Under the pieces are notes generated by a model, which was not told where the DNA came from, searched no databases, and saw only the letters and a program-made list of their open reading frames with translations. This document shows, piece after piece, positions 8,762 through 32,000 of a DNA stretch of 32,000 bases. The stretch's first letter is position 1. Each line of letters begins with the position of its first letter. The position numbers and the translations under genes are program-made. Source of the stretch: Paenibacillus montaniterrae (lineage in GTDB: Bacteria; Bacillota; Bacilli; Paenibacillales; Paenibacillaceae); the NCBI RefSeq assembly GCF_018403185.1, contig NZ_BOSE01000012.1:94194-126193 (forward strand), given 5' to 3'.

Positions 8762-9145
8762 ATGAGAATATCCAATACATTATTTAATGAGATCGTTGAT
8801 GACATTGAACAGTATATTCCGAAGCTTATTACAGCAAGCCATTCTATTGGCGACTTATTCTACGAACCATTAACGAATGAAGGTAGTCAATTCTTCTCAG
8901 ATTACATTACAGGTCTAAGTAACCTCATTCAAACGGTTATGATGACCTTAAAGGACGCTGCAGACCATGCTCCATCAATGATAGAACCAGTTACATATGC
9001 GTTGCAAGCGATACCTGAACAGGTTGCAGAGCTAGAAAAGGCTCTAGCACAGCAGCAGTTTGTGCATGTTGCAGATATATTAAAATATGAATTAGCAGAC
9101 CATTTGGATAAACTATTACAAGCACTAAAGGAGTCTCGCTCATAA
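8762..9145 (+). CDS. Hypothetical small helical protein (127 aa), translationally coupled to maf
   Basis: The ORF has RBS AGGAG 7 nt upstream of ATG 8762. Its stop overlaps the maf start (TAATG at 9143-9147). I recognised no family motif. Confidence 0.6.
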   Translation: MRISNTLFNEIVDDIEQYIPKLITASHSIGDLFYEPLTNEGSQFFSDYITGLSNLIQTVMMTLKDAADHAPSMIEPVTYALQAIPEQVAELEKALAQQQFVHVADILKYELADHLDKLLQALKESRS

Positions 9146-11012: not shown

Positions 11013-12002
<990 letters not shown>

Positions 12003-14462: not shown

Positions 14463-14499
14463 GTTTTAGGTGAATGTACATAGCAGAGGTGTGGGGATT

Positions 14500-15769: not shown

Positions 15770-16645
15770 ATGAAAGGCGTTATTTTAGCCGCTGGTACTG
15801 GTTCAAGATTGTTTCCATTAACTAAATCAATATCCAAACATCTATTACCGATTTATGACAAGCCTATGGTGTATTACCCTCTGTCAGTACTTATGTTGTC
15901 TGAAATTAGAGAGATATGTATTATTACCAATGAAGAGGATAGATATTTATATGAAGCGTTGCTAGGAGATGGAAACCAATTTGGTATTTCAATAACTTAC
16001 TTATCACAAAAGAGCCCTAATGGAATAGCAGAAGCATTTTTAATAGCAGAAGAATTTATTGGACAAGAGACAGTATGTTTAATTTTAGGAGATAATGTTT
16101 TCTTTGGTCAAGGCTTCACTCCGGTCTTAAGAAAAGCAGTAAAATTGAAAGAGGGAGCAATTGTTTTCGGTTATCCGGTTCATGATCCTGAAAGATTTGG
16201 TATCGTACAATTTGATGAATGTAAAAATGCTATCTTGTTAGAGGAAAAGCCAAAAAATCCTTCATCTCAATATGCTGTGACAGGCTTGTATTTTTACGAT
16301 AGCTCTGTAGTTAATATAGCTAAAACTTTAAAAGCCTCTGAGCGAGGTGAATTAGAGATTACAGATGTAAATAAAGCATATTTAGAAAGAAAAAAGTTAA
16401 AGGTTGAAATACTTGGTCGAGGATTTACATGGTTAGATGCAGGAACCTTTAGTAGCTTGTTGGAAGCTAGTCAATTTGTAGAAACAATCGAGAAGCGGCA
16501 GGGTTATAAGATTGCATGTTTGGAAGAAATTGCATTCAACCAAGGTTGGATTACACAGGAAGAAGTTTTGAGTACAGCTAGACGATATAAAAATAATGAC
16601 TACGGAAAATATTTATTTAAGTTAGTAGGTGATATACTTGATTAA
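15770..16645 (+). CDS. rmlA: Glucose-1-phosphate thymidylyltransferase RmlA
   Basis: MKGVILAAGTGSRLFPLTKSISKHLLPIYDKPMVYYPLSVLM and YLSQKSPNGIAEAF, GDNVFFG, LEITDVN are canonical RmlA/RfbA motifs. The protein is 291 aa. Confidence 0.93.
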   Translation: MKGVILAAGTGSRLFPLTKSISKHLLPIYDKPMVYYPLSVLMLSEIREICIITNEEDRYLYEALLGDGNQFGISITYLSQKSPNGIAEAFLIAEEFIGQETVCLILGDNVFFGQGFTPVLRKAVKLKEGAIVFGYPVHDPERFGIVQFDECKNAILLEEKPKNPSSQYAVTGLYFYDSSVVNIAKTLKASERGELEITDVNKAYLERKKLKVEILGRGFTWLDAGTFSSLLEASQFVETIEKRQGYKIACLEEIAFNQGWITQEEVLSTARRYKNNDYGKYLFKLVGDILD

Positions 16646-17783
16646 ATTTAACATTGCTCCAGTAGCGGGACAAGAAATAGAATTCATTCAAGATGCAATA
16701 AATTCCAGACATTTATGCGGAGATGGAAAATATACAGAGCTATGCAGTAAATGGTTAGAGAAAACAACCGGAACACCCAAAGTGTTACTAACAACAAGCT
16801 GTACACATGCGTTGGAAATGGCTGCACTCTTATTTGATATAAAACATGGTGATGAAGTAATTATGCCGTCATATACGTTTGTATCGACTGCTAATGCTTT
16901 TGTACTGCGTGGTGCTAAAATTATATTTGTCGATATACGTCCTGATACTATGAATATTGATGAAACAAAAATAGAGGCGGCTATCACTAACAGAACTAAA
17001 GTTATAGTTCCTGTCCATTACGCTGGTGTTGCATGTGAGATGGACACAATAATGAATATTGCTGAGCGATACAATTTATATGTGGTAGAAGATGCTGCGC
17101 AAGGTATTATGTCTACATATAAAGGAAGAATGTTAGGTAGTATTGGGCATCTAGGTACCTTTAGCTTTCATGAAACGAAAAATCTTGTTTGTGGGGAAGG
17201 AGGTGCGCTATTAGTAAACGATAGAAGACTTATAGAGAGAGCAGAAATTATTAGGGAAAAGGGAACAAATCGTTCACAGTTTATTAGTGGACGGGTTGAT
17301 AAATATACGTGGAGAGATATAGGGTCATCATATCTAATGTCCGAACTTACAGCTGCATATTTATATTCACAACTAATTAATGCACAGTATATTACTAAAA
17401 AGAGATTGAAATTATGGAGTATATATTACCAATACTTATATAATTTTATTGATATTTACGATATAGAGCTTCCTTGTATACCAAATACGGTAGAACATAA
17501 TGGTCACCTATTTTTCATTAAACTAAAGAATAAGAAAACAAGAGATAACTTAATTGAATATTTGAAAGATCGAGGTATACAAGCAACGTTCCATTACATT
17601 CCTCTTCATACAACAGAAACTGGAAAGAAATACGGGGAGTTTCATGCCTCTGATAATATGACTTGTGAGCAAAGTGATAAATTATTAAGACTACCGATGT
17701 TTTTTTCTTTAGAAGAGGAAACAGTAATACAAATCTGCAATGTAGTAGTAGATTACCTTAAGAAGGCGAGGGAGAAAATATGA
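16638..17783 (+). CDS. dTDP-4-amino-4,6-dideoxyhexose transaminase, WecE/RffA-like (PLP-dependent, DegT family)
   Basis: Long blocks match E. coli WecE as I recall it: GDEVIMPSYTFVSTANAFVLRGAKIIFVDIRPDTMNIDE, VIVPVHYAGVACEMDTIM, VVEDAAQGIMSTYKGR, FSFHETKN, ERAEIIREKGTNRSQF and VDKYTWRDIGSSYLMS. The start is TTG 16638 (giving MIKFNIAPV) or GTG 16629, and it overlaps the rmlA stop. Confidence 0.9.
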   Translation: MIKFNIAPVAGQEIEFIQDAINSRHLCGDGKYTELCSKWLEKTTGTPKVLLTTSCTHALEMAALLFDIKHGDEVIMPSYTFVSTANAFVLRGAKIIFVDIRPDTMNIDETKIEAAITNRTKVIVPVHYAGVACEMDTIMNIAERYNLYVVEDAAQGIMSTYKGRMLGSIGHLGTFSFHETKNLVCGEGGALLVNDRRLIERAEIIREKGTNRSQFISGRVDKYTWRDIGSSYLMSELTAAYLYSQLINAQYITKKRLKLWSIYYQYLYNFIDIYDIELPCIPNTVEHNGHLFFIKLKNKKTRDNLIEYLKDRGIQATFHYIPLHTTETGKKYGEFHASDNMTCEQSDKLLRLPMFFSLEEETVIQICNVVVDYLKKAREKI

Positions 17784-18979
17784 AAGGACAGAAAATTATG
17801 ATCGTAGCTGGAGGTGAGTGGCAGGTACCTATTATAAAAAAGGCTAAACAACTGGGGCTTCGTGTAATGAATACCAATTTGTATCAAGATTCTCCAGGCT
17901 TCCAATATGCTGATGAAAGTGCAGTTGCTGATGTCCTGGACTATAAAACCAATTTGCAGATAGCGGAGGCTTATAAACCTAATGCGATTATTACTGATCA
18001 GAGTGATATTGCGGTAAAAACAGTAGCACGGTTATGTGAAAGACTGAAACTAAAGGGAATTACTGAAAAGATTGCTGATCTATTTACGAATAAGTATCTT
18101 ATGAGAATGTTTTGCAAGGAACATGGATTTGATATACCAAGATTTGAACTATGCTGCAGTTTGCAGGAAGCTGAGACAGCATCCGAAAAAATCGGTTATC
18201 CGCTTGTAATGAAGCCTTTAAGAAATCAATCTAGCAGAGGTGTGTTTGTAGTTTATAATAAGGCCGAACTATTCCAAAAGTTCAATTTAACCCTTCAATT
18301 TTCTGAATCTGGTGAAGTGTTAGTTGAGGAATTTATTGACGGTAAAGAATTTACTGTAGAAGGATTCATGTTCAGTGATCGCCACATATCATTGGCAGTA
18401 TCAGCAAAGGATTATTTAAAAGATAATATTGCGATAGCAACAAGATTGGTATATAGTCATGAAAATTTTGATTTTAACTACGATTGTTTGAAAATTCAAA
18501 ATAATAATTTAGTAGAAACAATGAAACTCCCTTTTGGTATTACACATGCTGAGTACAAATACAAAGAGGGGAGGTTCTACTTGATTGAAATTGCAGCTCG
18601 AGGAGGAGGTACTAAAATTTCTTCTGATATCGTTCCACTAGTTTCGGGTGTTGACGTAAATGAACTACTTATAAGAAGTGCCTTGGGAGAGGAAATAAAA
18701 TCAGGGGATATTTCCCTAATGCAAAAATCAGTTGCGATTTTAGATTTTTTTATACTACCAACAGGAAGAGTTAAGAGTATCATAGGTGCGGAAGAGATAA
18801 CAATGATTCCAGGAGTAGTTGATTTTAAATTAAATTTTAAAGCGGGAGATACAATAAGTACACCTAATGATGATCGTTCTAGAGTAGGTTACTATATTGC
18901 ACATGCATCCTATAAGGAGAGTTTACTTTCCTTGGCTGAATATATTAAATTGAAGTTGAAGGTAATTTACGATGAATAA
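17780..18979 (+). CDS. ATP-grasp domain protein (carboxylate-amine ligase family), copy 1
   Basis: YPLVMKPLRNQSSRGVFVV, LVEEFIDGKEFTVEG and YLIEIAARGGG are ATP-grasp motifs. The ATGA start overlaps the transaminase stop. Confidence 0.8.
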   Translation: MKGQKIMIVAGGEWQVPIIKKAKQLGLRVMNTNLYQDSPGFQYADESAVADVLDYKTNLQIAEAYKPNAIITDQSDIAVKTVARLCERLKLKGITEKIADLFTNKYLMRMFCKEHGFDIPRFELCCSLQEAETASEKIGYPLVMKPLRNQSSRGVFVVYNKAELFQKFNLTLQFSESGEVLVEEFIDGKEFTVEGFMFSDRHISLAVSAKDYLKDNIAIATRLVYSHENFDFNYDCLKIQNNNLVETMKLPFGITHAEYKYKEGRFYLIEIAARGGGTKISSDIVPLVSGVDVNELLIRSALGEEIKSGDISLMQKSVAILDFFILPTGRVKSIIGAEEITMIPGVVDFKLNFKAGDTISTPNDDRSRVGYYIAHASYKESLLSLAEYIKLKLKVIYDE

Positions 18980-19736: not shown

Positions 19737-19740
19737 GTAT

Positions 19741-20373: not shown

Positions 20374-20396
20374 TCCTGATTGGAAGTGGTGCCAAG

Positions 20397-22236: not shown

Positions 22237-22360
22237 AAGACTTTATAAAGATTGTTGGAGTTAAGTGAATGATTTGGTGTAAATTTTAAAATATATGCAG
22301 ACGATACTAACCAGTATGAGAAATAATTTGTTAAATCAAATTTGTTAAGGGGGTTCGAAG

Positions 22361-23389
22361 GTGTATATATTAGTTACAGGAGGAGCTGGCTTTATTGGTT
22401 CAAATTTTATTGAGTATTATCTACAACAACATCCTGATGTGAAAATAGTAAATTTGGATTTACTCACCTATGCAGCTCATTTGCAGAATCTAGAGAGCTG
22501 TAATCAGAGTAACAAATACAGTTTTGTACATGGAGACATATGTGACAGGGATCTCGTTAAACATTTGTTTGAACATTATAATTTTGAAGGTGTAATTCAT
22601 TTTGCAGCGGAATCACACGTAGATAATTCTATTAAGAATCCCAGTTCTTTTGTTACTACAAATATCAACGGAACTTTTACATTGTTAAGTGTTGCTCAAC
22701 AGCATTGGATGAAAGCTCCATTTAAGTATAAAAGAAATTATGAACATTGTAGATTTCTTCACATTTCGACTGATGAGGTATACGGGACTTTAGGTAAAAC
22801 GGGGTACTTCACAGAACAATCGCCATATGCACCTAATAGTCCTTATTCTGCTAGTAAGGCAGCCTCAGATTTTTTAGTACGGAGTTACTACCATACTTAT
22901 GGTTTGAATGTGGTCACGACAAATTGCTCAAACAATTATGGCCCAAGACAGCATGATGAAAAGTTTATTCCTACTATTATTCGTAAAGCTATTTCTTTTG
23001 AGCCAATTCCTATATATGGAACTGGACTTAATATAAGGGATTGGCTGTATGTTAAGGAGCATTGTCGTGCTATTGATCTTGTATTTAACAATGGTAAGGT
23101 AGGAGAGACCTATTTAATAGGTGGAAGTAATGAGCATTCTAACATGAATATTGCACTATTGGTATGCTCTATTCTTGATGAATTATTGGTAGACGAACTT
23201 CAACATAAAGAAGTAACTTCCTTTACGGAACTAATAGAATTTGTAAATGATCGTGAAGGTCACGATTTTAGGTACGCTATAGATGCTAGTAAAATAAAAA
23301 AAGAATTAGGTTGGTTTCCACAAGGTAATTTTGAAGTGTTGTTAAGGGAAACAATATTATATTATTTAGATCGATATCAATTGAAGTGA
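22361..23389 (+). CDS. rmlB: dTDP-glucose 4,6-dehydratase RmlB
   Basis: ILVTGGAGFIGSNF, NLDLLTYAA, HFAAESHVDNSI, STDEVYG, SPYSASKAASD and NCSNNYGPRQHDEKFIP are canonical RmlB motifs. The GTG start lies 7 nt after AAGGGGG. Confidence 0.93.
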   Translation: MYILVTGGAGFIGSNFIEYYLQQHPDVKIVNLDLLTYAAHLQNLESCNQSNKYSFVHGDICDRDLVKHLFEHYNFEGVIHFAAESHVDNSIKNPSSFVTTNINGTFTLLSVAQQHWMKAPFKYKRNYEHCRFLHISTDEVYGTLGKTGYFTEQSPYAPNSPYSASKAASDFLVRSYYHTYGLNVVTTNCSNNYGPRQHDEKFIPTIIRKAISFEPIPIYGTGLNIRDWLYVKEHCRAIDLVFNNGKVGETYLIGGSNEHSNMNIALLVCSILDELLVDELQHKEVTSFTELIEFVNDREGHDFRYAIDASKIKKELGWFPQGNFEVLLRETILYYLDRYQLK

Positions 23390-23417
23390 ATAGCAGACTA
23401 TAAAGTGAGGAAAGTCA

Positions 23418-24350
23418 ATGACAAACATACTTATAACAAGTGCTGCAAATAAAGTGCCATTAATAGAATGTTTTAAAAAATTGTTAGGGTTCTCGGCTAA
23501 GATTTTTATTGCAGATTGTGCAGACAATAATATAGCAAAATACTTTGCAGATCAGTTTATTAAAGTTGTACCTTTAAAAGACTCTGTTATTGAGGACTAT
23601 ATTTTATTATGTAGAAAATATCAAATAAAATATATCATTCCTACAAGAGAAGAGGATTTGCTATTTTTTTCACTTTATAGAGATCGACTGGAAATTCAAG
23701 GGGTATATGTTCTTGTATCCTCAGTGGAAGCAATTAGAATTACAAATGATAAACTTAAATTTTACAAAGTTTTAAATGCTGAAAATTTACCTGTCATTCC
23801 TACTTTCTTGACGACAGAACAGTTCCATGAAAAAACAAGATTAGTAGTGAAAGAACGATTTGGGGCAGGATCGAAGAAAATATTCGTTAACTTAGATAAG
23901 GAGCAAGCAGTACAAGTATCGTACCAGCTAGAGAATCCAATAGTTCAGCCTTATATAGTTGGAAAAGAATACAGTGTAGACGTTTACATTACAAGGAAAA
24001 AGCAGGTTAAGGCAGTAGTAGTTCGTGAACGTCAACTTATAGTCGATGGAGAATCACAGATTACAAAAGTCTTAGATCATCCAAGCATATCAGGCTTAAT
24101 CAGCAAAGCAGCGTTGCTGTTGGGCTTAGAAGGCCATGTTATGTTTCAAGTTTTTGAAGATGAGCATGAAATGCTATGGATAATAGAATGCAATGCTCGG
24201 ATTGGAGGAGCTTCTACCTTAAGTATGTATGCTGGATTAGACTCTATTAATTGGTGGATTTCAGAATGTGGCGGAAAAAATGTTGCAGAATCGCCAGTAG
24301 TGATAAAAAAGATAAAGCAAGTTCGTTATAAAAAGGATTTACTTTTATGA
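23418..24350 (+). CDS. ATP-grasp domain protein, copy 2 (310 aa)
   Basis: LVVKERFGAGSKKIF, VQPYIVGKEYSVDVY and WIIECNARIGGAS are ATP-grasp motifs. The fold is the same as the 17780 gene but the sequences clearly differ. Confidence 0.8.
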   Translation: MTNILITSAANKVPLIECFKKLLGFSAKIFIADCADNNIAKYFADQFIKVVPLKDSVIEDYILLCRKYQIKYIIPTREEDLLFFSLYRDRLEIQGVYVLVSSVEAIRITNDKLKFYKVLNAENLPVIPTFLTTEQFHEKTRLVVKERFGAGSKKIFVNLDKEQAVQVSYQLENPIVQPYIVGKEYSVDVYITRKKQVKAVVVRERQLIVDGESQITKVLDHPSISGLISKAALLLGLEGHVMFQVFEDEHEMLWIIECNARIGGASTLSMYAGLDSINWWISECGGKNVAESPVVIKKIKQVRYKKDLLL

Positions 24351-25042
24351 GAAAAGTGATTGTTTTTGATTTGGATGATACACTATATGATGAATATGAA
24401 TATGTGAAAAGTGGGTTCCAAGCAGTTAGTGAATACCTATGGAGAGAATTTGGATTTGATACAAATGAAACTTATAACCGGATGTGGAACAGTTTAAAGT
24501 GTGAGGGTAGAGGAACCATATTTGATGGTTTGCTGAAATACTTTGGAATAACTCAACGAAAATATGTTAAAAAATGTTTATCAGTTTATCGGTTACATCA
24601 ACCAGAAATAATTTTACCTAAAGAGTCTAATGAAATACTGAGACAGTTGCACAAAAAAGTACCGCTATATTTAGTCACAGATGGGAATAAGGTTGTTCAG
24701 GCAAATAAGATTTATGCTTTAAGGTTAGAGATGTACATGAAAAAGTGCTATATTACTTACCGGTATGGTCATGCTAAAAGTAAACCATCCCCGTATTGTT
24801 TCCAGCTTATAGCAAAAAGCGAAGGGGTATCGACTGCAGATATTGTTTATATAGGGGATAATCCTAAAAAAGATTTTGTTGGAATCAAGCCGCTCGGCTT
24901 TAGAACAATTAGGGTGATGACAGGACAGCATTCTCAAGTAGAGATGCCTATACAATACGAGGCAGAATTAAGAATTAATCATATTTCTGATTTGATTCCT
25001 GCTTTAAAGCAAATATGGTGCAATTTTGTAATCGAGGGATAA
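24347..25042 (+). CDS. HAD-superfamily hydrolase or phosphatase
   Basis: Motif I is VIVFDLDDTLYDE (DxDxT), motif II is LVTDGN, and motif IV is YIGDNPKKDF. The ATGA start overlaps the upstream stop. Confidence 0.82.
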   Translation: MRKVIVFDLDDTLYDEYEYVKSGFQAVSEYLWREFGFDTNETYNRMWNSLKCEGRGTIFDGLLKYFGITQRKYVKKCLSVYRLHQPEIILPKESNEILRQLHKKVPLYLVTDGNKVVQANKIYALRLEMYMKKCYITYRYGHAKSKPSPYCFQLIAKSEGVSTADIVYIGDNPKKDFVGIKPLGFRTIRVMTGQHSQVEMPIQYEAELRINHISDLIPALKQIWCNFVIEG

Positions 25043-25047
25043 TTGTT

Positions 25048-25770
25048 ATGAATGTAATCGTTATAATTCAAGCAAGGATGGGATCTAAAAGACTACCTGG
25101 AAAAGTACTGAAAAAACTTGGAAGTACAGATGCTTTAAATTATTGTGTAAAGCGATGTAGCAAGATTAAAGGAGTTTCAGATGTAATTATTGCGACTTCA
25201 AACTTATCTCAAGATGATGCTATCGTTCAATGGTGCAAAACGTATAATGTCAAGTTCTTTCGAGGCTCTGAGGAAGATGTACTAGAAAGGTACGTTCAAT
25301 GCGCATGTACTTACAACCCCAAGTACGTGATACGTGTAACGGCTGATTGTCCGTTTGTAGACTATGAAATGGCTAGTGGTATAGTAGATTTTATTAAGCA
25401 GCAGCAGGTCGATATAGTAGATTTGGGAGCGACCTTGCCACGAGGCCTTGCGGTAGAAGCAATTTCCTACTCCGCCCTGCAATATATAGATCAGCATGGT
25501 CAGGAGCCGCGCCACCGCGAGCATGTGACCTACTATGCCTATGAATACAAAGATCAATTTACTAGAGCTACGTATCAACCGCCTAAAAATCGTTTGCATC
25601 CTGAGCTGCGCATTACACTGGATACAGAGGAAGATTACACGATGCTTGCTGCCGTAGCCCAGCATTTCAATGATCCGTATATACCCAGCAGCGAGGTCAT
25701 TAAGTACTTGCTTGAGCATCCTGAAATTGCTGCGTTAAATGCTCATGTGGAGCAAAAGCCAGTCATATGA
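25048..25770 (+). CDS. pseF: SpsF-type cytidylyltransferase, a putative CMP-nonulosonate (pseudaminic acid) synthetase
   Basis: MNVIVIIQARMGSKRLPGKVL and VIRVTADCPF are SpsF/acylneuraminate-cytidylyltransferase-family motifs. It is directly coupled to pseG. The start is ATG 25048; the ORF-track start at 25015 overlaps the HAD gene. Confidence 0.78.
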   Translation: MNVIVIIQARMGSKRLPGKVLKKLGSTDALNYCVKRCSKIKGVSDVIIATSNLSQDDAIVQWCKTYNVKFFRGSEEDVLERYVQCACTYNPKYVIRVTADCPFVDYEMASGIVDFIKQQQVDIVDLGATLPRGLAVEAISYSALQYIDQHGQEPRHREHVTYYAYEYKDQFTRATYQPPKNRLHPELRITLDTEEDYTMLAAVAQHFNDPYIPSSEVIKYLLEHPEIAALNAHVEQKPVI

Positions 25771-26753
25771 AGCAAGTATTAATAAGAACGGACGCTTCTA
25801 CTGCCATTGGCAGCGGGCATGTGATGCGGTGCCTGACAATAGCGAAGCATTTAAGGCGATTAGGCCATCATATACAGTTTTGGATGGAAATGCTGCCAGG
25901 TAATCTCATCGATTTGGTGCAGAGAGAAGGGTTTTCTGTAACAGAGCAGGAGATTGCTGTTGATCTGCTTATTGTAGATCATTATCAGCTGGACATAGAG
26001 TGGGAGCAAGCGATGCGGGCTGTGGCCAACAAAATCGTTGTTATTGACGATCTGGCTAATCGGCGCCATGACTGTGATTTACTGCTCGATCAAAATGTTG
26101 TTGCAGGCTATAAGCAGCGCTATGATCAATTGGTACCGGAGCATTGCATAAAGCTGCTTGGCCCTGCTTATTTAATTATGCGTGATGAATTTATTGAAGC
26201 TAGACAGCTTGCCGAGGTTCGTGATGGACATGTGCAGCGCCTGCTTGTATTTATGGGCGGCAGCGATCCAACTGGTGAAACGCTCAAGGTGCTGGATGCT
26301 TTAAGGCAAACTGCAACCAGCTTCAAGCATGTTGACATCGTGGTTGGCAGCAGCAATCCAAGTCGCGATTCAATAAAGCAGTATTGTGCAGAGCTGCAGC
26401 TTCATTATCATTGCCAAATTAACTATTTAGCGGAGCTAATGCGGCTTGCAGACTTTGCAATTGGAGCAGGCGGCTCGGCTATGTGGGAGCGCTGCTTTGT
26501 TGGCTTGCCGTCCTCAAGCACTGTGGTGGCGGACAATCAGCGTCTGACGACAGACAAGGCGACTGAGCTGGGAGCTATTATTCATTTGGGCTGGCACGAA
26601 GATGTCACTTCTGCCAGCTATTTGCGGCTATTGGATCAATTGCCGTTGCTTGGTGATCAGCTTGCAGCAATGAGCAGGCAAGGATTGACTATAACGGAAA
26701 GCCAGGGGAGTGCTAACGCTTGGCTTCAAGAAATGGTGGGGTTATTTGCGTGA
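25767..26753 (+). CDS. pseG: UDP-2,4-diacetamido-2,4,6-trideoxy-beta-L-altropyranose hydrolase PseG
   Basis: The N-terminus VLIRTDASTAIGSGHVMRCLTIAKHL, DHY and GGSD match the PseG/SpsG family pattern. At 328 aa it has no fused acetyltransferase domain. Confidence 0.87.
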   Translation: MKQVLIRTDASTAIGSGHVMRCLTIAKHLRRLGHHIQFWMEMLPGNLIDLVQREGFSVTEQEIAVDLLIVDHYQLDIEWEQAMRAVANKIVVIDDLANRRHDCDLLLDQNVVAGYKQRYDQLVPEHCIKLLGPAYLIMRDEFIEARQLAEVRDGHVQRLLVFMGGSDPTGETLKVLDALRQTATSFKHVDIVVGSSNPSRDSIKQYCAELQLHYHCQINYLAELMRLADFAIGAGGSAMWERCFVGLPSSSTVVADNQRLTTDKATELGAIIHLGWHEDVTSASYLRLLDQLPLLGDQLAAMSRQGLTITESQGSANAWLQEMVGLFA

Positions 26754-27796
26754 TTAAAATCGGACATAAGGAAATTGGACGTCATACAAAACCATTTATT
26801 ATCGCGGAAATGTCGGGCAATCATAATCAATCACTAGAGCGAGCGCTGCATTTGGTGGAGCTGGCGGCACAGGCCAGAGTCGATGCAGTTAAGCTGCAAA
26901 CCTATACGCCAGACACGATCACGCTCGATGTACATACAGGAGAATTTTTTATCTCCAATCAGGATGATTTGTGGAAAGGGCAATCACTGTACCAGTTGTA
27001 TCAAAAAGCGTACACGCCATGGGAGTGGCATAAGGCGATTTTTGACAAATGCAAGGAGCTTGGACTGTTGGCGTTTAGTTCTCCTTTCGATGAAACGGCA
27101 GTTGATTTCCTTGAAACGTTGGAAGTGCCTGCCTATAAGATTGCTTCATTTGAAAATGTAGATATTCCTTTAATCCGCAAGGTGGCAAAAACTGGGAAGC
27201 CCGTTATTATTTCTACAGGGATGGCTACTGCTGCAGAGCTTGATGAAGCAGTGCGTGCGGTTAGAGGCGAAGGAAACAACCAGCTTGTCCTGTTGAAATG
27301 TACAAGTACCTATCCAGCTACTCCAGAAAACTCAAATCTGGCTACTATCCCGCATATGGCTGAGCTGTTCCAAACACAGATTGGCTTATCCGACCATACG
27401 ATGGGGATTGGTGTTGCTGTAGCTGCTGTAACACTGGGCGCTACTGTCATTGAGAAGCATTTTACGACCTCGCGCGCAGAAGGCGGTGTAGATGCTGCTT
27501 TCTCGATGGAGCCGCATGAGCTGAAAATGCTGGTAGAAGAAACGGAACGGGCGTGGCTAAGCATTGGCCATGTGCAATACGGTCCAACCGAAGCAGAAAA
27601 GCCTTCTATTAAAAATAGAAGATCGCTATACATCGGCGAGGATATGAAGGCTGGCGATATTTTAACTGAACGCAGCCTGCGCAATGTGCGCCCAGGCTTG
27701 GGACTGGAAACGAAATATTATGATCTAGTGCTGGGCAAAGCTGTGAAAAAGGACGTCAAGAAAGGAACAGCATTGAGCTGGGATTTGCTGCTATGA
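26750..27796 (+). CDS. pseI: Pseudaminic acid synthase PseI (NeuB family)
   Basis: PFIIAEMSGNHNQSLERALHLVELAAQARVDAVKLQTY, YKIASFE, ISTGMAT, LLKCTSTYPA, LSDHT and the C-terminal SAF-like RSLY...AGDILT fit PseI. The likely GTG 26750 start overlaps the pseG stop (GTGA) and follows GGTGGGG. Confidence 0.92.
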   Translation: MIKIGHKEIGRHTKPFIIAEMSGNHNQSLERALHLVELAAQARVDAVKLQTYTPDTITLDVHTGEFFISNQDDLWKGQSLYQLYQKAYTPWEWHKAIFDKCKELGLLAFSSPFDETAVDFLETLEVPAYKIASFENVDIPLIRKVAKTGKPVIISTGMATAAELDEAVRAVRGEGNNQLVLLKCTSTYPATPENSNLATIPHMAELFQTQIGLSDHTMGIGVAVAAVTLGATVIEKHFTTSRAEGGVDAAFSMEPHELKMLVEETERAWLSIGHVQYGPTEAEKPSIKNRRSLYIGEDMKAGDILTERSLRNVRPGLGLETKYYDLVLGKAVKKDVKKGTALSWDLLL

Positions 27797-28938
27797 ACAA
27801 GCGACAATCATTTCTACCATATGGTCAGCAGTGGATCGAAGAGGACGATATTGCTGCAGTAATCGAGACACTTAAGTCTCCCTATTTAACGACGGGGCCG
27901 AAAATAGCCCAGTTTGAGCAGGCAGTAGCCGACTACGCAGGTGCAGCATATGCTGTAGCTTTTGCCAATGGTACGGCTGCTCTGCACGGAGCATGCTATG
28001 CTGCCGGTATTGCGGAAGGTGACGAGGTGATTACGACACCTATTACGTTTGCGGCAAGTGCCAATTGTGCGCGTTACTTTGGGGCAAGTATCGTATTTGC
28101 TGATATCGACGAAAAAACATACAATATTGACCCTGATCAACTGATTCGCAGCATAAGTCCGAAAACGAAGGCGATTGTGCCTGTAGATTTCACAGGTCAG
28201 CCTTGTGATATCGATACGATTATGGATATTGCCAAAAGGTATGGGCTCGTTGTCATTCAAGATGGAGCACACTCATTAGGTGCGGAGTATAAGGGGAAAA
28301 GAGTTGGCACTCAAGCGGATATGACGATGTTCAGCTTTCATCCTGTCAAGCCTGTTACGACGGCTGAGGGCGGAGTAATTGTAACAGATAACCCGGAATA
28401 TTATGAGAAGCTTAAGCTGTTTCGCACGCATGGGATCGCAACGACGACTTACGCCAAGGAGCAGGGAGATTGGTACTATGAGATGGTCGATCTTGGCTTC
28501 AACTATCGGATGACGGACTTGCAGGCAGCGCTTGGCATCTCACAAATGGGCAAGCTGCAGCAATTTATAGAGCGAAGACGAGAATTGGCAGCACTGTACA
28601 CTAAGCTGCTGCGTAATGTACGCGGCGTAACGCCACCTTATCAAGCGCCTGAAGCCCTTTCCGGCTGGCATTTGTATTCTGTTCAGCTAAACGAACAGGA
28701 GCTTGGCATGAGCCGCAAGCAAATTTTTGATCAAATGCGTTCAGCCAATATCGGTGTACATGTTCACTATATTCCTGTTTACTGGTTTCCGTACTATCAA
28801 AGATTAGGGTACGAAAAGGGACTGTGTCCAGTGGCTGAGAAGTGGTATGAAGGGGCATTGACGCTTCCGTTGTATCCGAAAATGACAGATCAGGATGTGC
28901 ACGAGGTAGTCGCTGTGCTAAAAAATATTATAGGTTAG
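27793..28938 (+). CDS. pseC: UDP-4-amino-4,6-dideoxy-N-acetyl-beta-L-altrosamine transaminase PseC
   Basis: FLPYGQQWIEEDDIAAVIETLKSPYLTTGPKIAQFE, NGTAALH, ITFAASAN, DGAHSLGA and FSFHPVKPVTTAEGG are PseC/DegT motifs including the PLP lysine. The ATGA start overlaps the upstream stop. Confidence 0.92.
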   Translation: MNKRQSFLPYGQQWIEEDDIAAVIETLKSPYLTTGPKIAQFEQAVADYAGAAYAVAFANGTAALHGACYAAGIAEGDEVITTPITFAASANCARYFGASIVFADIDEKTYNIDPDQLIRSISPKTKAIVPVDFTGQPCDIDTIMDIAKRYGLVVIQDGAHSLGAEYKGKRVGTQADMTMFSFHPVKPVTTAEGGVIVTDNPEYYEKLKLFRTHGIATTTYAKEQGDWYYEMVDLGFNYRMTDLQAALGISQMGKLQQFIERRRELAALYTKLLRNVRGVTPPYQAPEALSGWHLYSVQLNEQELGMSRKQIFDQMRSANIGVHVHYIPVYWFPYYQRLGYEKGLCPVAEKWYEGALTLPLYPKMTDQDVHEVVAVLKNIIG

Positions 28939-28950
28939 GAAGAAGCAAGC

Positions 28951-30276
28951 ATGAATGAGCGAGAGCAAATGAATACGCTTTTTGATCGGTTATTTCCGCT
29001 TCTCCGCAGCATTACAGGAGAAGGCTTGAGAGAGACGTTGTCTATTCTTAGTGAGCATGTGCCGCTTGAAATAGAAGAGGTTGCTTCAGGAACGAAGGTA
29101 TTCGACTGGACGATCCCTAAAGAATGGGTTTTGCGAGAAGCATGGATTAAAAATGAAGCCGGGCAAGACATTGTGAATGTGAAGCAGAGCAATCTTCATA
29201 TTTTAAACTACAGTGAGCCTGTCGATAAAATAGTAGATCTGGAGGAGCTAAAACAACATGTCTATACGATACCTCATTTGCCGCATGCCATTCCCTATGT
29301 CACTTCCTATTATAAGGAGCGTTGGGGCTTTTGCATGTCACATGAGCAGCTCAGCAGCTTGTCAGAGGGCAGCTACCATGTCTACATCGACAGCGAGAAG
29401 ATCGATGGTGGACTAAATTATGGACAAGCTGTGCTGCCTGGCAGAAGTGAGAAGGAAGTGCTCATCTCGACCTATGTCTGCCATCCTTCATTGGCAAACA
29501 ATGAGCTGAGTGGACCGATTGTGGCGGCATTTTTATACAACCGCATTAAGAAGTGGAAGGATAGAGAATTTACTTACCGCTTTGTATTTCATCCCGAAAC
29601 GATTGGCTCGATAGCTTACTTAGCTAAAAATGGCGAACACTTGAGGCAGCATGTTTATTCAGGCTGCGTCTTGACCTGTCTGGGCGGTAAGGATAAACCA
29701 TTGAATTATAAAATGGCGCGCAGCACTCAAGCGCCGCTTAATCGCTTGCTGGATTATTTAGTTGTCCATGAAAAGCGGGGCTATACGATTAGAGCTTTCT
29801 CGCCATTGAACGGCTCGGATGAACGCCAGTTTTGCTCGCCCGGCTTTAATTTGCCAGTGGGGCAATTTTCGCGAATGGTATACGGGCAATATCAAGGCTA
29901 TCATAATTCGTTGGACACGAAGGAAGCAATGACGATTGAAGCACTGCAGCAAAGCGTCGATGAAATTGAAGAAATATTAAAGCTGCAGGAGCTGGACGGC
30001 AAATATATCAATTTGAAGCCTTTTGGCGAGCCAATGCTTAGCCAATATGAGCTGTATCCCGATATTAATTCTCCAACAAGCTGGAAGGAATCCAATAGCA
30101 GAGTGATAGATAATCGGCAAATGCTGAACCAAATATTAATGACGTTGAATTATGGAGACGGCGAGCATTATTTGACCGACATTGCCAAAAAGCTGAACTA
30201 TCCTTTGCAAGACTATGAGCTAAGTACAAGAAAGCTAATCGAAGTAGGCCTGCTGCAAGGACCAATTCGAGATTAA
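28951..30276 (+). CDS. Aminopeptidase-like domain protein (COG4310 / DUF4910 family), function unknown
   Basis: The N-terminus LFDRLFPLLRSITGEGLRETLSIL...FDWTIPKEW and the central NNELSGPIVAAFLY are characteristic of this family. It recurs in polysaccharide and nonulosonate clusters. The protein is 441 aa. Confidence 0.78.
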   Translation: MNEREQMNTLFDRLFPLLRSITGEGLRETLSILSEHVPLEIEEVASGTKVFDWTIPKEWVLREAWIKNEAGQDIVNVKQSNLHILNYSEPVDKIVDLEELKQHVYTIPHLPHAIPYVTSYYKERWGFCMSHEQLSSLSEGSYHVYIDSEKIDGGLNYGQAVLPGRSEKEVLISTYVCHPSLANNELSGPIVAAFLYNRIKKWKDREFTYRFVFHPETIGSIAYLAKNGEHLRQHVYSGCVLTCLGGKDKPLNYKMARSTQAPLNRLLDYLVVHEKRGYTIRAFSPLNGSDERQFCSPGFNLPVGQFSRMVYGQYQGYHNSLDTKEAMTIEALQQSVDEIEEILKLQELDGKYINLKPFGEPMLSQYELYPDINSPTSWKESNSRVIDNRQMLNQILMTLNYGDGEHYLTDIAKKLNYPLQDYELSTRKLIEVGLLQGPIRD

Positions 30277-30292
30277 AGCGAGGTAAGCCGAT

Positions 30293-31090
30293 ATGAAAGT
30301 GATCATAATGACAGGTTCGCACCCAAGGCATTATTATGTAGCTGAGCAATTAATCAAGACAGGAAAAGTAGTTGGCTGTCTAATTGAGCATAGAGAGAGC
30401 TTTGTTCCTGATCCGCCAGCTTCATTAAATGATCAGGACAAGCAAAACTTTATTCGTCATTTCCATGATCGAGACCAGTCGGAGCGTGCGATGTTTCCTT
30501 CGACTATAACGATACCGGATAGCGTTTCCGTAAGAAACGTTACGATTGATCAGCTGAATAGCCCGGAAACGATCAAGTGGATGACTTCCCTTGAGGCAGA
30601 TGTGCTGATCAGCTATGGTGTGCATAAGTTAAGCAACGAGCTGTTGGCAGAAGCGCCTGAGTATGCATGGAATATTCATGGCGGGCTGTCTCCGTGGTAC
30701 CGCGGCACGACAACTCTATTTTGGCCATTTTATATGCTGCAGCCGAATTGGGCGGGGATGACCGTTCATAAGCTGACAGCCAAGCTGGATGCAGGAGATA
30801 TTTTGCATCATTCTGTCCCTGAGCTTAACTATGGTGACGGTATACACGATGTGGCTAATAAGGCGGTAAAGCAGGTTGCGGAGGATTTAAGCTACATATT
30901 AACGAACCTAAAGCTTGAGGAGCTCAGCTTTGTGCCGCAAAAATCAGCGGGCAAGCTGTTCTTATCTTCGGATTGGAAGCCAGAGCATTTAAGAGTGATC
31001 TATCAGCTTTTTGACAATAACATTGTAGATCGTTTTTTGGATGGAGAATTCCCTCGTACTGAGCCTCCTTTAGTACGAGCTTTTCATTGA
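30293..31090 (+). CDS. Formyltransferase-family protein (Fmt N-domain-like)
   Basis: WNIHGGLSPWYRGTTTLFW corresponds to the formyltransferase HxSLLPxxRG loop. The downstream MTVHKLTAKLDAGDIL corresponds to the xxD(T/A)GxI motif. The protein is 265 aa. Confidence 0.8.
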   Translation: MKVIIMTGSHPRHYYVAEQLIKTGKVVGCLIEHRESFVPDPPASLNDQDKQNFIRHFHDRDQSERAMFPSTITIPDSVSVRNVTIDQLNSPETIKWMTSLEADVLISYGVHKLSNELLAEAPEYAWNIHGGLSPWYRGTTTLFWPFYMLQPNWAGMTVHKLTAKLDAGDILHHSVPELNYGDGIHDVANKAVKQVAEDLSYILTNLKLEELSFVPQKSAGKLFLSSDWKPEHLRVIYQLFDNNIVDRFLDGEFPRTEPPLVRAFH

Positions 31091-31095
31091 TAAAT

Positions 31096-31143
31096 AATAG
31101 AAGCGAATACTGCGGCAGCAGCTGACGCTTCTATTTTATTTTT
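31096..31143 (+). terminator. Rho-independent terminator closing the glycosylation operon(s)
   Basis: AATAGAAGCG (31096-31105) pairs with CGCTTCTATT (31126-31135). The 20-nt loop can itself fold (CTGC/GCAG). It is followed by the T-rich sequence ttttatttttg. Confidence 0.75.
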
Positions 31144-31371
31144 GTAAATACTAAGCCCAGTTCCAACTCTATTCTGTACGTTGTAACAATTCGATGTAAA
31201 CATTTGTGACAAGAAAATTGTAGTTTATTTCATATTTTTGCTCGTTGCAAGCGTAAACGGGCTCTATCAGGGGTCAAAATAAAGGTGAAATTGAAAGTAC
31301 AAAGTTTATTGGAATTGTGCAAGACGACAAATGTTAATCTTGTTTTTATGAATTCGCTTACAACTATATCG

Positions 31372-31400
31372 TTGACATTTTGAACCAACCATTGTATAGT
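31372..31400 (+). promoter_or_regulatory. Sigma-A type promoter of the cold-shock gene
   Basis: TTGACA (31372-31377), a 17-nt spacer ending in TG, then TATAGT (31395-31400). This leaves a leader of about 55 nt before ATG 31462. Confidence 0.65.
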
Positions 31401-31461
31401 CAAATTGTGGGCCACATAATGCAGCCACACAGCATTTAAATGACGAAGGGAATGTTTGCAC

Positions 31462-31659
31462 ATGCAAGGAAAAGTAAAATGGTTTAATGCAGAAAAAGGA
31501 TACGGTTTCATCGAAACAGAACAAGGTGGCGATGTATTCGTACACTTCTCCGCTATCCAAACTGAAGGCTTCAAAACTCTAGAAGAAGGCCAAGCAGTTG
31601 AGTTCGATATCGTTGAAGGCGCACGCGGTCCACAAGCTGCAAACGTAGTTAAACTGTAA
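31462..31659 (+). CDS. Cold-shock protein (CspA/CspB family, 65 aa)
   Basis: [32 protein letters not shown] carries the RNP1 (KGYGFI) and RNP2 (VFVHF) motifs. The likely start is ATG 31462; the ORF-track start is TTG 31456. Confidence 0.95.
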
Positions 31660-31697
31660 TTATACGGCTAATCAGCCTCTATTATAGTGATGATGTC

Positions 31698-31729
31698 AAA
31701 AATCCTCTCTTTTTAAGAGAGGATTTTTT
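31698..31729 (+). terminator. Rho-independent terminator after the cold-shock gene
   Basis: AAAAATCCTCTCTT-ttt-AAGAGAGGATTTTT is a perfect 14-bp stem including the A/T ends, with a T-run. Confidence 0.88.
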
Positions 31730-31804
31730 ATTTGGCACAGCATCGATCATTTGAACAGCTAATTTAATGTAAGCTTTTGTAGCATTTATAATAGGAGGAC
31801 ATGT

Positions 31805-32000
31805 ATGTTCGCACACGAGTGGAGCTGCGTCAAGAAGGAGACGCCTCGAATCGCTGTAGTTGGCAGCTTGAATATGGACCTGGTTGTAAGTGCCGCGGCA
31901 TTTCCACGAAAAGGCGAAACGATAACAGGACATGCCATTCACTATATTCCTGGTGGCAAAGGCGCCAATCAGGCGGTTGCTTGTGCCAGATTGGGTGCAA
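31805..32000 (+). CDS. rbsK: Ribokinase (PfkB family), 5' fragment running off the window; not in the supplied ORF track
   Basis: My own translation from ATG 31805, which lies 6 nt after GGAGG 31794-31798, gives MFAHEWSCVKKETPRIAVVGSLNMDLVVSAAAFPRKGETITGHAIHYIPGGKGANQAVACARLGA. The blocks VVGSLNMDLV and PGGKGANQAVA.ARLG are the ribokinase N-terminal signature. Confidence 0.8.
   Translation, partial: MFAHEWSCVKKETPRIAVVGSLNMDLVVSAAAFPRKGETITGHAIHYIPGGKGANQAVACARLGA

What the first reader, a model, noticed from the sequence alone, without database searches (positions are those of the whole stretch)
23418..31090. No N-acetyltransferase anywhere: the PseH step (and the WecD step) seem to be replaced by ATP-grasp ligases or a formyltransferase
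The canonical Pse5Ac7Ac route needs PseB, PseC, PseH (a GNAT), PseG, PseI and PseF. All are present except PseH. PseG is 328 aa, so it has no fused GNAT domain. I saw no left-handed beta-helix or GNAT protein anywhere in the window. In their place the pse block is flanked by a second ATP-grasp ligase plus a HAD hydrolase (23418-25042) and a formyltransferase (30293-31090). The amine installed by PseC becomes N7 of the nonulosonate. This predicts a 7-N-formyl variant (Pse5Ac7Fo-type sugars are known from Pseudomonas) or a 7-N-acyl variant, not Pse5Ac7Ac. The island thus has two sugar amines, two ATP-grasp ligases and one formyltransferase, but no acetyltransferase.
Basis: partly seen in the sequence, partly recalled or inferred. 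Interest (0 to 1): 0.65.

Follow-up and report, generated by a model that had tools for sequence, protein, structure and literature searches.

The report
Pseudaminic acid island without any acetyltransferase
This flagellar sugar-decoration island makes a pseudaminic-acid-type sugar with no acetyltransferase, probably by using an ATP-dependent ligase for one nitrogen and a widely conserved two-gene "remove acetyl, add formyl" pair for the other, which gives testable candidates for enzymes that diversify these bacterial surface sugars.

Summary
No GNAT or hexapeptide acetyltransferase is encoded anywhere in the 32 kb window, in any frame. PseB, PseC, PseG, PseI, a PseF-like cytidylyltransferase and Maf are all present.

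Comparative genomics changes the interpretation:
- This formyltransferase family sits next to DUF4910 in 69 of 69 assessable metagenome loci.
- It coexists with bona fide PseH in many Bacillales clusters. One is a 98.7%-identical sister strain with a 100% identical formyltransferase.
- It was cleanly deleted in one Lysinibacillus cluster.
- It often occurs with DUF4910 as a stand-alone pair in Proteobacteria.
- The ATP-grasp+HAD cassette never co-occurs with true PseH, and it occupies PseH's slot in the sister strain.
- Published C. jejuni genetics (Cj1295) tie aminopeptidase-like proteins of this kind to exchange of the 5-N-acetyl group.

Best model (inferred, about 0.4): ATP-grasp+HAD acylate the PseC amine (N7), and DUF4910 plus the formyltransferase convert 5-N-acetyl to 5-N-formyl. 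The main rival is a PseJ-like 7-N-formyl route.

PseH absence in Geobacillus islands (2016) and the PseJ formyltransferase (2018) were already published. This is a new variant of a known kind.

The parts
9145..10989 (+). Maf/PseD-like flagellin nonulosonate transferase
   Evidence: PF01973 MptE-like 128.8 bits and Maf_flag10_N. NF050051 FlagModPseD domain hit at 75.6 bits, well below the model's 670-bit cutoff.
11019..12002 (+). PseB, UDP-GlcNAc inverting 4,6-dehydratase
   Evidence: TIGR03589 525.3 bits, cutoff 407.8.
16629..18979 (+). WecE-type dTDP-4-amino-4,6-dideoxyhexose transaminase (16629-17783), overlapped by an L-amino-acid-ligase-type ATP-grasp (17780-18979). No WecD is present.
   Evidence: TIGR02379 621 bits and NF008687 618 bits. 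LAL_C2 and ATP-grasp_4. PDB relatives are BL00235, RizA and BacD.
23418..24350 (+). ATP-grasp ligase (PRK12767 'CPS-like', PylC-like N domain). Candidate replacement for the PseH N-acylation step.
   Evidence: Family and structure. AF2 pLDDT 95; best fold match 2pn1 at TM 0.80. Always next to a HAD gene and never in a locus with true PseH.
24347..25042 (+). HAD-IA phosphatase partnered with the ATP-grasp
   Evidence: PF00702 and PF13419. DxDxT motif read from the translation. PDB relatives are PH1655 (4.5e-14) and N-acylneuraminate-9-phosphatase (7.9e-8).
25015..25770 (+). PseF-like (SpsF/KdsB-like) cytidylyltransferase. It contains the recombination breakpoint at about 25324.
   Evidence: PF02348 96.8 bits. 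Only 20.4 bits on TIGR03584. The L005 alignment starts at window position 25324.
25767..26753 (+). PseG, UDP-sugar hydrolase, with no fused GNAT
   Evidence: TIGR03590 272.7 bits over residues 3-261.
26720..27796 (+). PseI, pseudaminic acid synthase
   Evidence: TIGR03586 491.6 bits.
27793..28938 (+). PseC, aminotransferase that installs the amine which becomes N7
   Evidence: TIGR03588 505.3 bits.
28951..30276 (+). DUF4910/DUF2172/HTH_47 metallopeptidase-like protein of the CA_C2195 family, which by published family descriptions includes Cj1295. Candidate 5-N-deacetylase.
   Evidence: Pfam hits of 287.7, 124.6 and 37.2 bits. PDB 3k9t E=2e-98. Motifs CHPSxANNELSG, PETIG, GSDERQ and YH[NT]S are conserved in 87 homologues.
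30293..31090 (+). Formyltransferase of a distinct family that is always linked to DUF4910
   Evidence: PF00551. Asn127, His129 and Asp166 are invariant. AF2/Foldseek best matches are the ArnA formyltransferase domain and Fmt. DUF4910 lies upstream in 69 of 69 metagenome loci.
25324..32000 (.). Segment shared at 98.7% DNA identity with a sister strain (L005) whose upstream cassette is SDR, PseH, ACP, AMP-ligase, LuxE and LuxC instead
   Evidence: blastn and gene tables.

Best explanation
The island makes a CMP-activated pseudaminic acid derivative for flagellin without any acetyl-CoA-dependent N-acetyltransferase.

Shown by strong profile matches:
- PseB and PseC make UDP-4-amino-4,6-dideoxy-L-AltNAc.
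- PseG and PseI build the nonulosonate.
- A cytidylyltransferase and Maf are present to activate and transfer it.

Inferred:
1. The ATP-grasp ligase and its HAD phosphatase partner (23418-25042) take the place of PseH. They acylate the PseC-derived amine (future N7) with a carboxylic acid. The acid may be phosphorylated and dephosphorylated after ligation.
2. The DUF4910 metallohydrolase-like protein removes the 5-N-acetyl group inherited from GlcNAc. The formyltransferase encoded just downstream of it (16-nt gap here; overlapping reading frames in most relatives) re-acylates N5 with formyl from N10-formyl-tetrahydrofolate.

Predicted product: Pse5Fo7X, where X is the unknown ATP-grasp-installed acyl group and no acetyl group remains. 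The part of the island upstream of position 25324 is a strain-variable cassette. The pseG, pseI, pseC, DUF4910 and formyltransferase block is the constant core.
For: Formyltransferase and DUF4910 act as a dependent pair:
- 66 of 69 assessable formyltransferase-anchored metagenome loci have DUF4910 directly upstream. The other 3 have it within 1.7 kb.
- Only 34 of 78 assessable DUF4910-anchored genome loci have the formyltransferase.
- The two reading frames usually overlap by 1-17 bp.
- In Aeromonas and Pseudoalteromonas the pair stands alone among unrelated genes.

The formyltransferase is not tied to absence of PseH:
- An identical formyltransferase protein and 98.7%-identical DNA occur in L005 with a true PseH (111 bits).
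- True PseH also occurs in L003 and L017, and by phmmer in L009-L011, L013, L020 and L077.
- The formyltransferase gene is cleanly deleted in L012 compared with L009.

Site of action:
- Cj1295 knock-out and knock-in strains switch flagellin between Pse5Ac7Ac and 5-N-(dimethylglyceroyl)-Pse. The authors propose cleavage of the C5 acetamido group (PMC3068675).
- In Rhizobium herbae, DUF4910 is followed by an AAC(3)-like N-acetyltransferase.

ATP-grasp+HAD as an alternative to PseH:
- The two genes are always adjacent to each other.
- They sit inside the pse module in Geobacillus, Paenibacillus yanchengensis and Lysinibacillus, and those loci contain no GNAT.
- They are never found together with true PseH.

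Supporting chemistry and precedent:
- Every related cluster has at least two N-acylating enzymes, but the canonical pathway offers only one free amine. A deacetylase is therefore needed.
- C. jejuni PseI tolerates varied 4-N acyl groups but handles a bulky 2-N acyl group poorly (PMC13576459).
- An amidoligase-plus-phosphatase pair is established in C. jejuni capsule synthesis (Cj1438C and Cj1435; PMC12409886).
Against: - No biochemistry exists for any of the four key proteins.
- Every formylated Pse described so far carries the formyl on N7 (PMC11040635, PMC13576459). PseJ shows that a formyltransferase can take the PseH step.
- In several loci the formyltransferase lies next to pseC.
- The ATP-grasp is often fused or adjacent to a non-PseH GNAT, in L007, L014, L168 and many proteins of about 510 aa. 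Its role may therefore not be a simple PseH substitute.
- Homology of Cj1295 to the window protein was inferred from published family descriptions and was not tested by sequence here.
- Asp195, the third Zn ligand of CA_C2195, aligns with Asn184 in this subfamily, which has an invariant Glu185 beside it.
- The loci compared are phylogenetically related, so the counts overstate independent events.
- PseH elsewhere in the genome is not excluded.
Confidence: 0.4

Rival explanations
1. The formyltransferase acts like PseJ on the PseC product and gives a 7-N-formyl sugar. DUF4910 then deacetylates N5, and the variable cassette re-acylates N5: the ATP-grasp here, PseH-like GNAT with acyl-ACP genes in sister strains. 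The product would be Pse5X7Fo, analogous to the known Pse5Hb7Fo of P. aeruginosa.
For: - PseJ is a precedent, and all known formylated Pse sugars carry the formyl on N7 (PMC11040635; PMC13576459).
- The L017 cluster has KAS III, a ketoreductase, a GNAT, DUF4910 and the formyltransferase. That is exactly the gene set expected for Pse5Hb7Fo.
- PseG, PseI and PseC lie in the segment shared at 98.7% DNA identity between strains with different cassettes, so early intermediates may be the same.
- DUF4910 lies next to PseI or PseF in many phyla, and the formyltransferase lies next to PseC in many Bacillales.
- A NulO with one free and one formylated amine, together with a deacetylase and a formyltransferase, is reported in Kuenenia.
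Against: - A PseJ-like enzyme would not need DUF4910, yet this formyltransferase family is never seen without it.
- The GNATs in the sister clusters are bona fide PseH equivalogs, which normally act on the 4-amine.
- The formyltransferase deletion in L012 leaves an otherwise complete pathway.
- Stand-alone pairs occur far from pseC.
- The enzyme is only remotely similar to PseJ.
Confidence: 0.25
2. PseH is encoded elsewhere in the genome. The core product is ordinary Pse5Ac7Ac, and the ATP-grasp, HAD, DUF4910 and formyltransferase only decorate part of the pool or another sugar.
For: - Only 32 kb of a contig of at least 169 kb could be seen.
- In Proteobacteria the DUF4910-formyltransferase pair sits away from the pse genes, so action in trans is normal for this system.
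Against: - Complete islands lacking any GNAT recur in four genera. In Lysinibacillus the whole stretch from Maf to FlaG is visible.
- The published Geobacillus survey also found no PseH in its islands (PMC5109656).
- In the sister strain PseH lies inside the island.
Confidence: 0.12
3. The ATP-grasp+HAD pair does not acylate a Pse nitrogen. For example, it could amidate the C1 carboxylate with a phospho-amine, as Cj1438C and Cj1435 do, or it could carboxylate an amine. The formyltransferase would then be the only N7-acylating enzyme.
For: - The Cj1438C/Cj1435 precedent activates a sugar carboxylate.
- After 2pn1, the nearest folds are bicarbonate-activating enzymes: biotin carboxylase and PurK.
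- The HAD protein is distantly related to Neu5Ac-9-phosphate phosphatase.
Against: - It does not explain the strict mutual exclusion with PseH.
- It does not explain why the formyltransferase always needs DUF4910.
Confidence: 0.1
4. Transient formylation, as in ArnA/ArnD. The formyltransferase caps the PseC amine to pull the transamination forward. DUF4910 later removes the formyl, and the ATP-grasp or GNAT installs the final N7 acyl group. N5 stays acetylated.
For: - ArnA is the closest solved relative.
- The model explains why the formyltransferase always comes with a hydrolase-like partner.
- It would yield known sugar types such as Pse5Ac7Hb.
Against: - DUF4910 is common without the formyltransferase (44 of 78 loci).
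- In C. jejuni the family is linked to N5, not N7.
- The scheme is pointless in clusters that already have a true PseH, or for stand-alone pairs.
Confidence: 0.08

Closest known systems
Canonical CMP-Pse5Ac7Ac pathway (PseB, C, H, G, I, F) of C. jejuni and H. pylori
   Same: PseB, PseC, PseG and PseI are equivalog-level matches. A Maf transferase and flagellin genes lie next to them.
   Different: No PseH is present. The cytidylyltransferase is not a TIGR03584 PseF. There are four extra genes: ATP-grasp, HAD, DUF4910 and the formyltransferase.
PseJ formyltransferase route to Pse5Ac7Fo (Anoxybacillus; PDB 6ci2; cited in PMC11040635)
   Same: A folate-type formyltransferase sits in a Bacillales pse cluster that lacks PseH. 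The catalytic Asn/His/Asp triad is present.
   Different: Similarity to PseJ is only 28 bits (E=8e-6), and PseJ is not among the top 50 structural matches. The window enzyme is 265 aa with a family-specific GxHPRH motif and an insert. Its family is always coupled to DUF4910 and often coexists with PseH.
Cj1295 of C. jejuni NCTC 11168 and CA_C2195 of C. acetobutylicum (DUF4910 family)
   Same: The domain architecture matches CA_C2195 and the match to 3k9t is E=2e-98. As in C. jejuni, the gene sits right after pseC in a flagellin glycosylation locus. Cj1295 is genetically required for replacing the 5-N-acetyl group (PMC3068675).
   Different: The partner here is a formyltransferase rather than GNATs, ACPs and a methyltransferase. 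The biochemical activity of the family is still unproven. Cj1295 homology was not tested by sequence here.
Geobacillus flagellin glycosylation islands, types II-IV (De Maayer and Cowan 2016, PMC5109656)
   Same: The module is the same: HAD, ATP-grasp, PseF, PseG, PseI, PseC, DUF4910 and formyltransferase, next to flagellin. The absence of PseH was already noted there.
   Different: That paper did not connect the formyltransferase, DUF4910 or the ATP-grasp to the missing step. The window additionally carries a dTDP-amino-sugar block.
C. jejuni capsule amidoligase Cj1438C with phosphatase Cj1435
   Same: An ATP-dependent amide-forming ligase is paired with a phosphatase in sugar modification (PMC12409886).
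   Different: There the ligase activates a glucuronate carboxylate and adds a phospho-amine. No sequence relationship was tested. That these two are ATP-grasp and HAD proteins is from my own knowledge.

Membership tests
Pse5Ac7Ac biosynthetic pathway | PseB, inverting 4,6-dehydratase | tested here: met
   TIGR03589 525.3 bits, cutoff 407.8.
Pse5Ac7Ac biosynthetic pathway | PseC aminotransferase | tested here: met
   TIGR03588 505.3 bits, cutoff 423.5.
Pse5Ac7Ac biosynthetic pathway | PseH GNAT N-acetyltransferase | tested here: not met
   No TIGR03585 or Pfam acetyltransferase hit in any ORF. Six-frame profile search gave a best E of 0.2. The rest of the genome was not visible.
Pse5Ac7Ac biosynthetic pathway | PseG UDP-sugar hydrolase and PseI synthase | tested here: met
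   TIGR03590 272.7 bits and TIGR03586 491.6 bits.
Pse5Ac7Ac biosynthetic pathway | PseF (TIGR03584) CMP-Pse synthetase | tested here: inconclusive
   CTP_transf_3 scores 96.8 bits, but TIGR03584 scores only 20.4 bits against a cutoff of 205.7. The gene is conserved inside all related pse modules.
Folate-dependent formyltransferase superfamily | Formyl_trans_N fold with the catalytic Asn/His/Asp triad | tested here: met
   PF00551 38.9 bits. N127, H129 and D166 are invariant in 16 and in 30 homologues and align to the ArnA triad region. Foldseek matches ArnA and Fmt at E=1e-11.
PseJ (Pse 7-N-formyltransferase) | Orthology-level similarity to PseJ (6ci2/6ci4) | tested here: not met
   28.7 bits, E=8e-6, ranked below ArnA and Fmt. 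Not among the top 50 fold matches.
PseJ (Pse 7-N-formyltransferase) | Formylates UDP-4-amino-4,6-dideoxy-L-AltNAc | not testable with these tools
   Requires an enzyme assay.
DUF4910 / CA_C2195 / Cj1295 family | DUF4910 with inserted DUF2172 and a C-terminal HTH_47 domain | tested here: met
   Pfam 287.7, 124.6 and 37.2 bits. 3k9t matches at E=2e-98 over residues 8-420.
DUF4910 / CA_C2195 / Cj1295 family | Single-Zn site (His189, Asp195, His324), with the M28 catalytic Asp and Glu replaced by Ser and Pro | tested here: inconclusive
   H178, S180, P215 and H318 are conserved. Asp195 aligns with Asn184, which has an invariant Glu185 beside it.
DUF4910 / CA_C2195 / Cj1295 family | Sequence homology to Cj1295 itself | not tested
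   Inferred from the family descriptions in PMC3068675, PMC4000134 and PMC10832277.
ATP-grasp amide ligases | ATP-grasp fold and domains | tested here: met
   PF15632, PF02655 and PF21360. AF2 pLDDT 94.9 with TM 0.80 to 2pn1 and 0.71-0.73 to PylC. The substrate is unknown.
HAD phosphatases | DxDxT nucleophile motif and HAD fold | tested here: met
   FDLDDT at residues 7-12. PF00702 and PF13419.
ECA-type dTDP-Fuc4NAc pathway (RmlA, RmlB, WecE, WecD, WecF) | WecD N-acetyltransferase | tested here: not met
   RmlA, RmlB, WecE-like and GT56/WecF-like proteins are present. There is no acetyltransferase. An ATP-grasp overlaps the end of wecE.

The most novel reading that the evidence does not exclude
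DUF4910 proteins are the missing 5-N-deacetylases of nonulosonic acids. With their translationally coupled formyltransferase they form a portable two-gene module that swaps the 5-N-acetyl group for formyl, yielding 5-N-formyl pseudaminic acids, which have not been described. This module is found from Bacillales to Aeromonas and SAR86. In parallel, an ATP-grasp+HAD cassette provides a route to 7-N-acyl Pse that needs neither PseH nor acetyl-CoA.
Probability: 0.3. Interest if true: 0.75.

Novelty: new variant of a known kind. Interest (0 to 1): 0.55.

Why it matters
Pseudaminic acids on flagella, pili, capsules and LPS vary in their two N-acyl groups. These groups affect antibody and Siglec recognition. 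The enzymes that install anything other than acetyl are described as largely unknown (PMC5378307, PMC11040635).

This island and its relatives give concrete, testable candidates:
- a deacylase-like protein with genetic support only in C. jejuni;
- a dedicated formyltransferase family;
- an ATP-grasp/HAD cassette that alternates with PseH, even between near-identical strains.

If confirmed, these rules would allow glycan chemistry to be predicted from genomes. They would also supply enzymes for chemoenzymatic synthesis of Pse variants.

Tried and rejected
- Apparent DUF4910-formyltransferase fusion in L031 (658-aa ORF). The two genes are in different frames and the long ORF is an artefact. No true fusion was seen.
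- DUF4910 active-site motifs compared between formyltransferase-paired and unpaired genes. There was no consistent difference in the metal-site motifs. The scan patterns themselves bias two of the motifs.
- Idea that the formyltransferase formylates an amino acid added by the ATP-grasp. Rejected, because an identical formyltransferase works in L005, which has no ATP-grasp.
- Exact-sequence look-up of window PseB, tried to extend the sister-strain contig. It was not on record.
- Papers that are not held: Reimer 2018 (PseJ), and the two PMC ids I tried for Raymond 2002 (P. aeruginosa O7 locus) and Iyer 2009. I therefore could not check whether the PseJ or O7 clusters contain DUF4910.
- Foldseek with the ATP-grasp model gave only generic ATP-grasp neighbours and no substrate clue.
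- The Tannerella and Clostridium Pse papers have no information on ATP-grasp or DUF4910 roles.

Full report
**What is in the window**

The window is a Bacillales-type flagellar locus. By DUF4910 and formyltransferase identity (72-73% and 62-66%), the closest named relatives are Paenibacillus.
- FlgN, FlgK, FlgL, FliW, CsrA, FlaG, FliD, FliS, a FliT-like protein and two flagellins occupy 262-8651.
- A single-strand, tightly packed glycosylation island runs from 9145 to 31090.
- A cold-shock gene and a PfkB-family (ribokinase-like) kinase gene follow it.

The island encodes the following:
- Maf and PseB.
- Three glycosyltransferases, including a WecF-like GT56.
- RmlA, a WecE-type transaminase, an L-amino-acid-ligase-type ATP-grasp, an amidohydrolase, an RraA-like protein, a methyltransferase, a class I aminotransferase and RmlB.
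- A second ATP-grasp (23418), a HAD hydrolase (24347), a PseF-like cytidylyltransferase (25015), PseG (25767), PseI (26720) and PseC (27793).
- A DUF4910/DUF2172/HTH_47 protein (28951) and a formyltransferase (30293).

**Check of the observation**

- No acetyltransferase of any fold was hit in any main ORF or antisense ORF.
- Two GNAT profiles were built from relatives and searched against every stop-to-stop ORF of 30 aa or more in six frames. Nothing scored better than E=0.2. The same profile found the GNAT of a sister strain at E=9e-13.
- PseG has no fused domain.

**The formyltransferase**

- It has the invariant Asn127/His129/Asp166 triad.
- Its confident AF2 model matches the ArnA formyltransferase domain and Fmt best.
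- It is only remotely related to PseJ, the published Pse 7-N-formyltransferase (28 bits). It is therefore a member of the superfamily but not a PseJ orthologue.

**Comparative genomics: the conserved core**

The block of PseF-like, PseG, PseI, PseC, DUF4910 and formyltransferase genes is conserved in Geobacillus, Paenibacillus, Lysinibacillus, Psychrobacillus, Aneurinibacillus and others.

A formyltransferase-anchored scan of metagenome contigs gave 69 loci with enough upstream sequence.
- 66 have DUF4910 directly upstream on the same strand.
- The other 3 have it within 1.7 kb.

The reverse does not hold. In a DUF4910-anchored scan of species genomes, only 34 of 78 assessable loci carry the formyltransferase.
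- Bacteroidota place DUF4910 beside PseI or PseF-like genes without it.
- Rhizobium herbae follows DUF4910 with an AAC(3)-like N-acetyltransferase.

The two reading frames mostly overlap by a few bases. In Aeromonas fluvialis and Pseudoalteromonas luteoviolacea the pair stands alone among unrelated genes. The formyltransferase therefore appears to depend on DUF4910, and not on PseC or on the absence of PseH.

**Comparative genomics: the variable cassette**

Two assemblies are 100% identical to the window. A third, L005, carries the identical formyltransferase protein and 98.7%-identical DNA from window position 25324 (inside the pseF-like gene) to the window end.
- Upstream, L005 has an SDR, a GNAT, an ACP-like protein, an AMP-ligase, LuxE and LuxC in place of RmlB, the ATP-grasp and HAD.
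- That GNAT is a bona fide PseH (111 bits on TIGR03585, cutoff 93.1). So are those of P. endoradicis (107 bits) and P. anaericanus (122.5 bits).
- In P. anaericanus, KAS III and a ketoreductase lie beside PseH, which looks like a 3-hydroxybutyryl module.

Across about 170 fetched loci, three types recur:
- **Type A:** ATP-grasp, HAD and PseG with no GNAT. Members are the window, Geobacillus, P. yanchengensis and a Lysinibacillus island visible from Maf to FlaG.
- **Type B:** true PseH and PseG, with no ATP-grasp or HAD.
- **Type C:** a distinct GNAT scoring only 21-28 bits on the PseH model, fused or adjacent to the ATP-grasp, plus HAD.

True PseH and the ATP-grasp/HAD pair never co-occur. In one Lysinibacillus type-B cluster the formyltransferase gene is cleanly deleted, while DUF4910 and PseC remain.

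**Literature**

- De Maayer and Cowan (2016) had already noted that PseH is missing from Geobacillus islands, and they listed formyltransferases without linking the two.
- PseJ established a formyltransferase route to Pse5Ac7Fo.
- Das et al. (2014) solved CA_C2195. They showed that it lacks the M28 catalytic residues and proposed a role in sugar-amide chemistry.
- Hitchen et al. (2010) showed that Cj1295, the aminopeptidase-like gene immediately after pseB and pseC in C. jejuni, is required for Pse carrying 5-N-(2,3-di-O-methylglyceroyl) instead of 5-N-acetyl. They proposed that it cleaves the C5 acetamido group. Its biochemistry is still open in 2026. I did not test Cj1295 homology by sequence.
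- C. jejuni PseI accepts 4-N-formyl and 4-N-hydroxybutyryl substrates well, and 2-N-hydroxybutyryl substrates poorly.
- An ATP-dependent amidoligase plus phosphatase pair is established in C. jejuni capsule synthesis.
- A preprint reports a nonulosonate with one free and one formylated amine, next to a deacetylase and a formyltransferase, in Kuenenia.

**Synthesis**

Every related cluster has at least two N-acylating enzymes, but the canonical pathway offers a single free amine. A deacetylase is therefore required, and DUF4910 is the only hydrolase-like protein common to all these clusters.

The dependence of the formyltransferase on DUF4910, its coexistence with true PseH, and the C. jejuni data favour an editing pair that converts 5-N-acetyl to 5-N-formyl. 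The PseH step in the window would then fall to the ATP-grasp/HAD cassette. I give this model about 0.4.

The main rival (0.25) keeps the formyl on N7, as in all known formylated Pse sugars, and sends the variable acyl group to N5. This is the gene set expected for the known sugar Pse5Hb7Fo. Lesser rivals are:
- PseH encoded elsewhere in the genome.
- An ATP-grasp role that does not involve a Pse nitrogen.
- ArnA/ArnD-style transient formylation.

All site assignments are inferences. Nothing here is biochemical.

**Verdict**

This is a new variant of a known kind. It has moderate interest because it turns an acknowledged gap, the enzymes that diversify nonulosonate N-acyl groups, into specific experiments.

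Noticed in passing
window 9000-25300 versus 25300-31100: GC content is 29-36% across the variable part of the island and 42-48% across the conserved pseG-to-formyltransferase block and the flanks. The step coincides with the recombination breakpoint at 25324 inside the pseF-like gene. The low-GC part looks like an exchangeable cassette.
   Followed up: partly
window 15770-23389: A dTDP-4-amino-4,6-dideoxyhexose block lacks WecD. It contains RmlA, a WecE-like transaminase, an L-amino-acid-ligase-type ATP-grasp overlapping the wecE stop, Amidohydro_2, an RraA-like protein, a SAM methyltransferase, a class I aminotransferase and RmlB, with a WecF-like GT56 upstream. It suggests a second sugar N-acylated with a custom, possibly methylated, amino or keto acid.
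   Followed up: partly
window 6841-7671 and 7839-8651: Two tandem flagellin genes share 243 identical residues out of 276 and 270 aa. The differences cluster in the central variable region.
   Followed up: no
window 8741-9145: A 134-aa ORF with no Pfam hit ends exactly where maf starts, sharing one base. It may be a flagellin-glycosylation accessory protein.
   Followed up: no
L029 9992-12153; L055 9989-12120: In Aeromonas fluvialis and Pseudoalteromonas luteoviolacea the DUF4910-formyltransferase pair is an isolated two-gene unit. Its neighbours are HDOD, META and Hsp70-like genes in one case, and MFS, SSB and EAL genes in the other. It lies far from any sugar cluster.
   Followed up: partly
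P0275, P0278, P0298, P0307 and others; L168 10001-11527: Many proteins of about 510 aa fuse an N-terminal non-PseH GNAT to this ATP-grasp. L168 shows a compact cluster of PseB, PseC, GNAT-ATP-grasp, HAD, PseI and PseF-like genes with no recognisable PseG or DUF4910.
   Followed up: partly
L007 4836-6746; L014 6310-8208: In Aneurinibacillus migulanus and Paenibacillus validus the ATP-grasp carries an N-terminal NAD-dependent epimerase/dehydratase-type domain (about 630 aa in total). No PseG was found in those loci.
   Followed up: no
L012 11340-11449 versus L009 11340-12115: There is a natural clean deletion of the formyltransferase gene in Lysinibacillus xylanilyticus ILBB64 relative to another Lysinibacillus genome that aligns at about 89-91% identity across this region. 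This gives a ready-made comparison for glycan mass spectrometry.
   Followed up: yes
L169 4254-4973: The Lysinibacillus island carries a second, unrelated sugar N-formyltransferase (Formyl_trans_N plus N_formyltrans_C) in a dTDP-sugar block. That island therefore has two formyltransferases and no acetyltransferase.
   Followed up: no
window 30293-30500 (formyltransferase residues 8-64): The family has invariant residues that are absent from ArnA and Fmt alignments: GxHPRH (8-13), E32, R34, H56, F57, R60 and E64. They lie partly in an inserted helix (47-67 in the AF2 model) and may bind an anionic substrate group.
   Followed up: no
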